A DNA stretch of 64,000 nt from Trypanosoma brucei (lineage: Eukaryota). Position numbers and translations under genes: made by a program. The notes under the pieces were generated by a model. The model made no database searches, had not been told where the DNA came from, and was given only the letters and a program-made list of their open reading frames with translations. The number at the start of each line of letters is the position of its first letter. Position 1 is the first letter of the stretch. The DNA lies in contig CM000207.1 of the NCBI GenBank assembly GCA_000002445.1, positions 128,001-192,000 of the forward strand. Direction: 5' to 3'. Shown piece by piece: positions 37,311 through 38,327 of the stretch.

Positions 37311-38327
37311 TTATGCAAACAGCCAAAATAAAAATATCCGTAGAAACTGTAAAATAATTTTGGCGGAACTCTTTTGTTCTTCTGGTGGTCTTGCCGTAGT
37401 GGCACCTGTTTCAGTGCTGGTAGTTGTTTGCGCATTTGGGTTTCCATCTTTTTGTGGTCCTTCTGTCCCCTTAGCTGGTGAGTTATCCCCTGTGCTTGGA
37501 ACTGTGTTTGGCTTTGGATATTTTTCCATGCTTGGCTTCCCGTCCGCACGTGGTTTTGTGCTTCCACTTGTACTTTCATCCTTGCTCATTTCTTCAACTT
37601 CTCTCACCAGATCTTCGAGCTTACTAAGCCATTCAATACCACTTGCGTTGTCCTCGTTAGATCCCCTTGGGTACAGCACACAAATGCCGTCGTTCTCTGA
37701 TTCCGCTCCATTGCAAGTATGCAGTCCGTACTCTTTACCTCCCCCGTAGGTATAGAGGTGTTCGCGTCCATCTGAGTTCTTACGTTTCTTTATGCGCATC
37801 CTGAATTGAACCTTATTCTCGTGAAATTCAGTTTCTGATGGCACACCTTTTCCACTTCCAGTTATGCATCTACTCCTCAAGTCGTCCCATGTGCTTCGGT
37901 GCTTTTGGATGGTTGGCCATTCCTGGGAGTTAACTTTTCTTACATTTCCCGTGTAACAAAGGTCCCTAAGATTTGGTTGCTGACCTGTTCCTTCGCACAA
38001 ACAAATAATATCTTTTACAAGAGACCTTCCTGCCGACGCAGGGATACCCCCACTGTCTTGTCCGTAATCCTGTTCTCTGTACCATTTCCATTTCATTCTA
38101 TTCAGATCATCAACTCCTGATTCAAACAATATATCTTTAACCCTTTTTTGCACAGAGGCCACGTCTGCTTTTGATTTTCCCTTCATTGTTTCAAGTGAAT
38201 CGCTTATTCGTCCAACGAAACTAACAAATTCACATAATATTTTAAATTCATCCTCATTAAGTATACCTTGCTCCGCGCCGGACACATAGGTCAATATTAA
38301 AGTCACACCAAGAACTAATCCCAGCAA
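37311..38327 (-). CDS. Small b-type-VSG-like GPI-anchored protein (338 aa); VSG-related/ESAG2-like candidate
   Basis: Intact minus-strand ORF. Signal peptide 'MLGLVLGVTLILTYVSGA'. 'IICLCEGTG' (the CxC of b-type VSGs) and 'HTCNGAESENDGICVLYP' (compare 'GCNGSKGHGICVKF' in the VSG at 60040 and 'GCTGADNAGMCVKIP' in the VSG at 8315). Ser/Thr/Pro-rich linker. C-terminal hydrophobic tail 'AKIILQFLRIFLFWLFA'. A polypyrimidine tract lies upstream on the coding strand (38370-38400). Confidence 0.55.
   Translation of the reverse strand: MLGLVLGVTLILTYVSGAEQGILNEDEFKILCEFVSFVGRISDSLETMKGKSKADVASVQKRVKDILFESGVDDLNRMKWKWYREQDYGQDSGGIPASAGRSLVKDIICLCEGTGQQPNLRDLCYTGNVRKVNSQEWPTIQKHRSTWDDLRSRCITGSGKGVPSETEFHENKVQFRMRIKKRKNSDGREHLYTYGGGKEYGLHTCNGAESENDGICVLYPRGSNEDNASGIEWLSKLEDLVREVEEMSKDESTSGSTKPRADGKPSMEKYPKPNTVPSTGDNSPAKGTEGPQKDGNPNAQTTTSTETGATTARPPEEQKSSAKIILQFLRIFLFWLFA

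What the first reader, a model, noticed from the sequence alone, without database searches (positions are those of the whole stretch)
37311..38327. Compact b-type-VSG-like GPI protein on the opposite strand (338 aa)
The ORF has the b-type VSG N-domain hallmarks (CxC 'ICLCEG'; 'CNG...GICV' loop) but compressed into about 230 residues. A Ser/Thr/Pro/Gly-rich low-complexity linker follows ('KPNTVPSTGDNSPAKGTEGPQKDGNPNAQTTTSTETGATTARPPEE'), then a GPI signal. There is no VSG C-terminal domain, no 70-bp repeat and no 16-mer. That organisation resembles VSG-related or ESAG2-like families rather than a switchable VSG. It is intact, has a polypyrimidine tract upstream, and sits isolated among degenerate DNA, suggesting it is maintained by selection. 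A mini-VSG with an O-glycosylation-like stalk could be an invariant surface or receptor protein.
Basis: partly seen in the sequence, partly recalled or inferred. Interest (0 to 1): 0.65.

Follow-up and report, generated by a model that had tools for sequence, protein, structure and literature searches.

The report
Inactivated copy of VSG-related surface gene
The ORF is a copy of the already described "VSG-related" (VR) surface-protein family of Trypanosoma brucei, in the reference strain's chromosome 9, and it has a stop codon at codon 2, so it is most likely a recently inactivated pseudogene and not a new kind of surface receptor.

Summary
There is a 340-codon open frame on the minus strand with a class-B VSG fold of about 235 residues, a Thr/Pro/Ser/Gly/Lys-rich tail and a hydrophobic GPI-type C-terminus. 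It has no VSG C-terminal domain, no 70-bp repeat and no 16-mer.

Two parts of the interpretation fail.

1. **The gene is not intact.** The "338 aa" comes from a TTG start in the bacterial code. The family's real start is four codons upstream and reads ATG TGA AAG AAG, where every homologue has ATG TGG AAG AAG (MWKK). The next in-frame ATG lies after the signal peptide. A cysteine conserved in 26/26 relatives is Tyr here.

2. **It is not a new type.** It is 79% identical to an annotated T. b. brucei TREU927 "VSG-related, putative" protein. It belongs to a subfamily of 26 proteins, most of them 340–345 aa, so the compactness is family-wide and not a local deletion.

The window itself is TREU927 chromosome 9: three neighbouring genes match GenBank proteins exactly, but this locus has no deposited protein. 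The literature already reports VR proteins as translated and surface-associated in bloodstream forms. Low interest; already known.

The parts
38368..38400 (-). Polypyrimidine tract (38400-38370, 28 of 31 bases pyrimidine) followed by AG (38369-38368). Probable trans-splice acceptor, 28 nt upstream of the ATG.
   Evidence: Read directly. Most of it is conserved with the T. b. gambiense paralogue L007 in alignment A3. Its role as a splice acceptor is inferred and not tested.
38337..38339 (-). ATG that corresponds to the start codon of the VR family.
   Evidence: It aligns with the ATG of ATGTGGAAGAAG in L006 and L007.
38334..38336 (-). TGA nonsense codon at codon 2. Homologues have TGG (Trp), so this is a G-to-A change at window base 38334 on the coding strand.
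   Evidence: DNA alignment A3: L001, L006 and L007 all read TGG at this codon. In protein alignment A1 nearly all members have W here (MWKK or close variants).
38277..38333 (-). Remainder of the signal peptide (KKLLGLVLGVTLILTYVSGA). It can no longer be reached from an ATG.
   Evidence: The hydrophobic core LLGLVLGVTLILTY has a mean Kyte-Doolittle value of 2.3. It aligns with the N-termini of all homologues. No signal-peptide predictor was available.
37566..38273 (-). Compact class-B VSG-type N-terminal domain (about 235 residues) with the CLC motif, the C-x-G...GICV loop and one N-glycosylation sequon (NAS).
38064..38066 (-). TAC (Tyr) at a position where all 26 relatives have Cys (DCGQDSG). 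This leaves seven cysteines where the family has eight.
37359..37565 (-). Low-complexity Thr/Pro/Lys/Gly/Ser-rich tail of 69 residues, highly conserved within the subfamily.
   Evidence: Composition. pLDDT is below 50 for residues 257-325. Conservation is seen in A1. Divergence from L006 is low at both synonymous and non-synonymous sites (dS 0.13, dN 0.11).
37311..37364 (-). Probable GPI-addition signal (17 residues, AKIILQFLRIFLFWLFA, after Ser-Ser) followed by the TAA stop.
   Evidence: Mean hydropathy is 1.8 and the segment is conserved in the family. The GPI function is inferred by rule of thumb; no GPI predictor was available.
35646..37310 (-). 3' flank that is duplicated together with the VR gene.
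   Evidence: blastn shows 72.8% identity over window 35646-38342 with the T. equiperdum VR locus L006.
38340..40868 (-). 5' flank shared with the T. b. gambiense chromosome 5 VR locus. It is non-coding. Identity reaches 91-93% at 39.9-40.7 kb, higher than in the VR coding region.
   Evidence: The 186-aa ORF at 39297-39857 is broken by stops and a frameshift in the gambiense copy.
29848..30831 (-). ESAG1 gene (identical to XP_803380) about 6.5 kb downstream on the same strand. The same VR-then-ESAG1 arrangement occurs at two other loci.
   Evidence: Pfam ESAG1 E=1.8e-115. Exact protein match. Colinearity with L007 and L006.

Best explanation
The ORF is a paralogue of the Trypanosoma brucei VSG-related (VR) gene family. 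It belongs to the roughly 340-residue subfamily and lies in T. b. brucei TREU927 chromosome 9.

An intact member of this subfamily encodes a signal peptide, a shortened class-B VSG-type helical domain, a disordered Thr/Pro-rich stalk and a GPI signal. According to the literature, such members are made outside the VSG expression sites and reach the bloodstream-form surface.

This copy carries a TGG-to-TGA change at codon 2 and has lost a family-invariant cysteine. It therefore cannot make a secreted, GPI-anchored protein and is a pseudogene. The inactivation is probably recent, or the rest of the frame has been kept open by gene conversion with intact paralogues.

The copy sits in a VR-plus-ESAG1 segment that has been duplicated between chromosome ends.

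Shown: family membership, fold, the nonsense codon, the Cys loss, the duplicated block and the mosaic relationships. Inferred: the GPI anchoring, the splice acceptor, the recency of inactivation and the role of gene conversion.
For: Family:
- 26 T. brucei-group relatives have E values from 1.7e-178 to 2.9e-65 and lengths of 250-367 aa, most of them 340-345 aa. The best is 79% identical: XP_844697, 'VSG-related, putative', TREU927.
- The next-nearest clusters are other annotated VR proteins, including Tb09.v1.0300. After them come T. congolense VSGs that align end to end.

Fold:
- Pfam VSG_B E=6e-28.

Pseudogene:
- The window reads ATG TGA AAG AAG, against ATG TGG AAG AAG in L006 and L007 and GTG TGG AAG A in L001. 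Nearly all aligned proteins have W at this codon.
- The next in-frame ATG is codon 52.
- C90Y and G71E fall at positions that are 26/26 and 25/25 conserved.

Annotation:
- The window's VSGs at 5814-7334 and 8315-9913 and its ESAG1 at 29848-30831 are exact matches to XP_803378, XP_803379 and XP_803380 of TREU927 (contig 3,057,547 bp).
- No protein closer than 87% identity (a 254-aa partial, P0003) corresponds to this ORF. The version starting at the downstream Met is also absent from the collection.

Duplicated block:
- Window 26872-40868 is colinear with T. b. gambiense chromosome 5 at 1.30-1.32 Mb, which also has a VR followed by ESAG1.

Mosaicism:
- Residues 1-70 and 135-255 are almost identical to Lister 427 'VSG 1903'. 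Residues 116-300 are almost identical to the chromosome 5 VR. Residues 70-120 match nothing closely.

Family biology:
- VR genes lack 70-bp repeats and many are up-regulated in bloodstream forms (PMC2771046).
- VR proteins are translated and surface-associated (PMC4587319).
Against: - Apart from codon 2, the 340-codon frame is completely open, which would be very unlikely by chance in DNA of about 41% G+C. Its upstream splice-acceptor-like tract is conserved.
- Pairwise dN/dS against three paralogues is 0.34-0.58, so the lineage was under purifying selection for most of its history.
- A single G-to-A difference could be a sequencing or assembly error, or a strain-specific polymorphism. I could not see reads, other TREU927 assemblies or the record's own pseudogene flag.
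- The overall number of departures from family-conserved positions (4 of 64) is within the range of intact members (0-14).
Confidence: 0.8

Rival explanations
1. It is a functional VR gene. The TGA at codon 2 would be a sequence error or a polymorphism private to the sequenced clone, and the locus would make a normal GPI-anchored, VSG-fold surface protein, as its paralogues do.
For: The rest of the frame is open for 340 codons. The polypyrimidine tract and AG are conserved. All domain features are retained. The closest relative in another strain, Lister 427 VSG 1903 (P0003), begins MWKK.
Against: - The nonsense codon is in the reference sequence.
- A second damaging change is present: the invariant Cys is Tyr, leaving an odd number of cysteines.
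- No protein is deposited for this locus, although its three neighbours have one.
Confidence: 0.12
2. It is a decayed canonical b-type VSG that lost about 110 N-terminal-domain residues and its C-terminal domain by deletion at this locus.
For: Only profile positions 193-342 of Pfam VSG_B match well. hhalign aligns VR residues 56-248 with canonical VSG residues 171-358, so the first 145 or so residues of a canonical domain have only about 35 counterparts here. The ORF lies in a region with VSG pseudogenes.
Against: The same short architecture, the same length (most members 340-345 aa) and the same conserved tail occur in 26 relatives on several chromosomes and in several strains and subspecies. 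T. congolense VSGs of 361-374 aa align with the profile end to end. The shortness is therefore a property of the lineage and not a local deletion.
Confidence: 0.02
3. It belongs to another VSG-derived family, such as ESAG2, Fam1 (Tb927.6.1310-like flagellar-pocket proteins) or TgsGP, and not to VR.
For: Fam1 has the same outline: 347 aa, signal peptide, b-type VSG homology, no C-terminal domain and a GPI signal (PMC3605285).
Against: - All hits that carry a genome-project name are 'VSG-related'.
- No ESAG2, TgsGP or chromosome 6 TREU927 protein is among the 26 close hits or the 20 next-nearest representatives that I named.
- PMC3605285 treats VR and Fam1 as separate families.
Confidence: 0.03

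Closest known systems
T. brucei VSG-related (VR) genes (Marcello and Barry 2007, as cited in PMC2771046, PMC2854126 and PMC3605285); closest member XP_844697 (TREU927 chromosome 5)
   Same: 79% identity over the full length. It has the same length class, signal peptide, shortened class-B VSG domain with the same cysteine framework, conserved Thr/Pro-rich tail and hydrophobic C-terminus. There are no 70-bp repeats, no 16-mer and no canonical VSG C-terminal domain.
   Different: - This copy has TGA at codon 2 and Tyr in place of an invariant Cys.
- It lies in subtelomere-type DNA, next to a VSG array and ESAG1. VR genes are typically described at chromosome-internal strand-switch regions, although some VRs are subtelomeric (PMC2771046).
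- Residues 70-120 are a patch not closely matched by any known member.
Canonical VSGs of Trypanosoma congolense (for example YnAT 1.3 and IL3000 CCD13942, CCD11629)
   Same: They are short b-type VSGs of 361-413 aa. Two of them (361 and 374 aa) align with the VR profile almost end to end (profile 1-325 to residues 1-327). [quoted passage not shown]
   Different: Sequence similarity is distant (E 6e-9 to 8e-7 with the profile). They are variant antigens of another species. The conserved VR tail is not shared.
Class-B T. brucei VSG N-terminal domains with solved structures (mVSG1954 8b3w, VSG11 8ok4, VSG3 6elc, VSG615 8ok8)
   Different: Only 14-16% identity. About 110 residues of the N-terminal part of the canonical domain have no counterpart. 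There is no C-terminal domain and no switching apparatus (70-bp repeat, 16-mer). The model has moderate confidence only (mean pLDDT 59, pTM 0.60).
Fam1 (Tb927.6.1310 family) of the African trypanosome cell-surface phylome
   Same: A T. brucei-specific, b-VSG-derived protein of 347 aa with a signal peptide and GPI signal and without a VSG C-terminal domain. It is expressed mainly in bloodstream forms (PMC3605285).
   Different: The authors treat it as a separate family from VR. No Fam1-type protein appeared among the close hits. I did not compare the sequences directly.
ESAG2
   Same: Also derived from b-type VSG (PMC3605285).
   Different: ESAG2 is linked to expression sites. No ESAG2-named protein appeared among the relatives I examined.

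Membership tests
T. brucei VSG-related (VR) family | Sequence clusters with annotated VR proteins and not with canonical VSGs | tested here: met
   Best hit is XP_844697 'VSG-related, putative', 79% identity over 100% of the query, E=1.7e-178. There are 26 relatives, most of 340-345 aa. The next clusters are also VR-annotated.
T. brucei VSG-related (VR) family | b-type VSG N-terminal domain homology | tested here: met
T. brucei VSG-related (VR) family | No 70-bp repeats upstream (PMC2771046) | tested here: met
   The only 70-bp-type repeat in the window is at 7584-7790, 30 kb away and next to a canonical VSG.
T. brucei VSG-related (VR) family | Typical location at a chromosome-internal strand-switch region (PMC2771046) | tested here: not met
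   The context is a VSG array with 16-mers, ESAG1 and a glycosyltransferase-like pseudogene. The same paper reports some VRs (for example VR10, Tb927.5.110) in subtelomeric clusters, so this feature is typical and not obligatory.
T. brucei VSG-related (VR) family | Intact coding sequence (needed for a functional member) | tested here: not met
   TGA at codon 2, with the next ATG at codon 52. This makes the locus a VR pseudogene.
T. brucei VSG-related (VR) family | Transcribed outside expression sites, with protein at the bloodstream-form surface | not testable with these tools
   Reported for the family (PMC2771046; PMC4587319). No expression data were available for this copy.
Canonical switchable T. 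brucei VSG | VSG C-terminal domain | tested here: not met
   No Trypan_glycop_C match at E<=10. The two canonical VSGs in the same window match it at 8e-17 and 1.5e-27.
Canonical switchable T. brucei VSG | 16-mer in the 3' UTR and 70-bp repeats upstream | tested here: not met
   All seven 16-mer matches are on the + strand at 1.7-23.3 kb, and none is near 37-38 kb. No 70-bp repeat lies near the ORF.
ESAG2 | Closest sequence relatives are ESAG2 proteins | tested here: not met
   No ESAG2-named protein appears among the 26 hits or the 20 next-nearest representatives that I named. No ESAG2 sequence was compared directly.
Fam1 (Tb927.6.1310-like) | Closest sequence relatives are the chromosome 6 tandem Fam1 genes | tested here: inconclusive
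   No TREU927 chromosome 6 protein is among the close hits. I had no Fam1 sequence for a direct comparison.

The most novel reading that the evidence does not exclude
The copy may not be simply dead. It could take part in segmental gene conversion among VR paralogues on different chromosome ends. Its N-terminal 70 residues recur in a Lister 427 gene, and its C-terminal two-thirds recur in the chromosome 5 VR with a different breakpoint. On this reading the supposedly invariant VR family would diversify by mosaic formation, as VSGs do, with pseudogene copies acting as donors.
Probability: 0.2. Interest if true: 0.3.

Novelty: already known. Interest (0 to 1): 0.1.

Why it matters
It matters little beyond good bookkeeping. 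The VR family is a poorly understood set of non-variant, VSG-fold surface proteins of a major pathogen, and its function is still open. This locus adds only one inactivated paralogue in the reference genome.

Two modest points may be useful:
- VR genes travel with ESAG1 in a duplicated cassette between chromosome ends.
- The VR coding region is much more diverged than its flanks (58-69% against 91-93% identity) and shows a mosaic pattern between strains. This hints at gene conversion or diversifying pressure on a family usually treated as invariant.

Tried and rejected
- The look-up of encoding contigs for P0001, P0008 and the window's VSG returned nothing: TREU927 genes are not indexed there. 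I therefore could not get DNA of the closest paralogue for a lineage-specific dN/dS test.
- Marcello and Barry 2007 (tried as PMC1950903) is not held. Its content is cited only through later papers.
- The afdb50 fold library was unavailable, so ESAG2 and Fam1 models could not be compared by structure.
- A PDB sequence search gave only a chance hit at E=1.4.
- A literature search for 'VR pseudogene' returned only vomeronasal-receptor papers.
- The 186-aa ORF upstream (39297-39857) was considered as a neighbouring gene. I rejected it because its gambiense counterpart has stops and a frameshift and it has no Pfam match.
- Internal deletion of a canonical VSG was rejected because the short architecture is family-wide.
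- Stop-codon readthrough or selenocysteine at TGA was considered and set aside on general knowledge: T. brucei nuclear genes use the standard code. This was not tested.

Full report
**The observation.**
The minus strand of the window carries an uninterrupted frame from 38333 to 37314, with a TAA stop at 37311-37313.

The bases just upstream, in frame, read ATG (38339-38337) TGA (38336-38334) AAG AAG TTG CTG. Most homologous proteins begin MWKK or a close variant. At DNA level the homologous loci read ATGTGGAAGAAG (L006, L007) and GTGTGGAAGA (L001) where the window reads ATGTGAAAGAAG. The gene's natural start codon is therefore present, but codon 2 has changed from Trp (TGG) to a stop.

The next in-frame ATG is codon 52 (38186-38184). 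It lies after the hydrophobic signal sequence, so no secreted product can be made from the sequence as given.

- Pfam VSG_B matches at E=6e-28. Only the second half of the profile (positions 193-342) aligns well. No VSG C-terminal domain is found even at E<=10.
- The CLC motif and the C-x-G...G-I-C loop align with the same motifs of the two canonical b-type VSGs that lie in the same window.
- The 69 residues before the hydrophobic C-terminus are rich in T, P, K, G and S and are predicted to be disordered (pLDDT below 50 for residues 257-325).
- The last 17 residues are mostly hydrophobic and follow Ser-Ser. That is compatible with a GPI signal, but this is my inference, because no predictor was available.
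- The VSG 16-mer occurs seven times in the window (0.12 expected by chance). All seven lie on the + strand between 1.7 and 23.3 kb, after VSG genes or fragments, and none is near the ORF.
- The only 70-bp-type repeat is at 7584-7790, upstream of a canonical VSG.
- A polypyrimidine tract followed by AG lies 28 nt upstream of the ATG, and most of it is conserved with a paralogous locus.

**What it is.**
A search of the protein collection gave 26 relatives, all from the T. brucei group. Their lengths are 250-367 aa, most of them 340-345 aa. The members that come from genome projects are named 'variant surface glycoprotein (VSG)-related, putative'. The best is XP_844697 of TREU927 (contig of 1,608,198 bp), at 79% identity over the full length.

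The compact architecture, the cysteine framework and the tail are shared by all of them. The shortness is therefore a family property and not a deletion at this locus.

A profile search of 1.84 billion representatives gave three tiers:
- Seven clusters of this subfamily (E below 1e-60).
- Other annotated VR proteins, for example Tb09.v1.0300 and VRs of chromosomes 1, 2, 3 and 11.
- T. congolense VSGs of 361-374 aa, which align end to end, and canonical T. brucei b-VSGs, which align only from about residue 160 onward.

An AlphaFold2 model built on the 27-sequence alignment has moderate confidence (mean pLDDT 59, pTM 0.60, with a well-predicted helical core). Its best structural matches are all class-B VSG N-terminal domains:
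- The first 22 Foldseek hits are VSG11, mVSG1954, VSG3 and VSG615.

**Where it is.**
Three other genes of the window are exact matches to GenBank proteins of T. b. brucei TREU927, all on a contig of 3,057,547 bp that also carries Tb09.v1.0300, so this is chromosome 9:
- the VSG at 5814-7334 is XP_803378;
- the VSG at 8315-9913 is XP_803379;
- the ESAG1 at 29848-30831 is XP_803380.

No deposited protein corresponds to the VR ORF. The closest relative over the full length is 79% identical, and a partial protein from another strain is 87% identical. The version starting at the downstream Met is also absent. The annotators of the reference genome thus called proteins for the neighbours but not here, which is what a pseudogene annotation would produce. 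I could not read the record itself.

**Signs of decay and of history.**
Besides the nonsense codon, the copy has Tyr (TAC) where all 26 relatives have Cys in DCGQDSG, and Glu where 25/25 have Gly. It is left with seven cysteines where the family has eight. Its total of four departures at 64 family-conserved positions is not exceptional, since intact members show 0-14.

Pairwise dN/dS against three paralogues with available DNA is 0.34-0.58. This shows purifying selection over the family's history but says nothing about the terminal branch.

The copy is a mosaic:
- Residues 1-70 and 135-255 are nearly identical to Lister 427 'VSG 1903', a partial sequence that begins MWKK.
- Residues 116-300 are nearly identical to the chromosome 5 VR.
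- Residues 70-120, which contain both unusual substitutions, match nothing closely.

**The surrounding block.**
Window 26872-40868 is colinear with T. b. gambiense chromosome 5 at 1.30-1.32 Mb. There a different VR (51% identical protein) is likewise followed about 6 kb downstream by ESAG1. A T. equiperdum VR locus shows the same linkage.

Identity to the gambiense block is 91-93% at 39.9-40.7 kb, upstream of the gene. It drops to 58-69% in the VR N-domain and returns to 75% in the tail. Synonymous divergence in the N-domain (dS 1.33) far exceeds the flank divergence. Coding region and flanks therefore have different histories, which is best explained by gene conversion among paralogues (inference).

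The rest of the neighbourhood has no long conserved ORF. The 186-aa ORF upstream is broken in the gambiense copy.

**How it works.**
For intact family members, the literature supports the following:
- They are expressed outside VSG expression sites.
- Many have higher mRNA levels in bloodstream forms (PMC2771046).
- The protein is translated and surface-associated in bloodstream forms (PMC4587319).
- The function is 'poorly understood' and the transcribing polymerase is unknown (PMC6988115).

For this copy, the most likely state is a recently inactivated pseudogene (confidence about 0.8). The main rival is that the TGA is an error or a private polymorphism and the gene is functional (about 0.12).

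**Verdict.**
- The family-level interpretation is right in outline, but the family is already known.
- The claims of intactness, selection and novelty are not supported.
- Interest is low.

Noticed in passing
window 1-24000 (+ strand): A head-to-tail VSG array. Two canonical b-type VSGs with C-terminal domains lie at 5814-7334 and 8315-9913 (XP_803378 and XP_803379). An a-type fragment lies at 13728-14429. There are seven copies of the 3' 16-mer, all on the + strand, and a 70-bp-type repeat at 7584-7790.
   Followed up: partly
window 29848-30831 (-), and L007 17099-18073: ESAG1 lies about 6.5 kb downstream of the VR on the same strand. The same VR-then-ESAG1 order is found on T. b. gambiense chromosome 5, and an ESAG1-like stretch follows the T. 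equiperdum VR. This suggests a duplicated VR-ESAG1 cassette. The ESAG1 protein falls in the same 90%-identity cluster as a T. b. rhodesiense ESAG1 (AAB04054).
   Followed up: partly
window 39900-40700: A non-coding stretch upstream of the VR is 91-93% identical to the gambiense chromosome 5 locus, far more conserved than the VR coding region (58-69%). I did not establish why this flank is so well kept.
   Followed up: no
window 58829-59881 (+): A 350-codon open frame with a weak galactosyltransferase match (Pfam Galactosyl_T, E=1.9e-6) and no ATG at its start. It is probably a glycosyltransferase pseudogene of the kind common in T. brucei subtelomeres.
   Followed up: no
window 60472-61392 (+): A truncated b-type VSG. 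VSG_B profile positions 129-352 are present with only the first third of a C-terminal domain, so this is a VSG pseudogene fragment.
   Followed up: no
window 26986-27600 (+): A 205-codon open frame with Cys/His spacing reminiscent of a zinc finger and no Pfam match. It lies in the part of the block shared with gambiense chromosome 5 at 78% identity. It may be a remnant of a retroelement; I did not examine it.
   Followed up: no
representative search hit P0042: A 3,844-residue predicted protein from an ENA assembly contains 13 separate matches to the VR profile. It is probably a run of VSG-like pseudogenes fused by gene calling.
   Followed up: no
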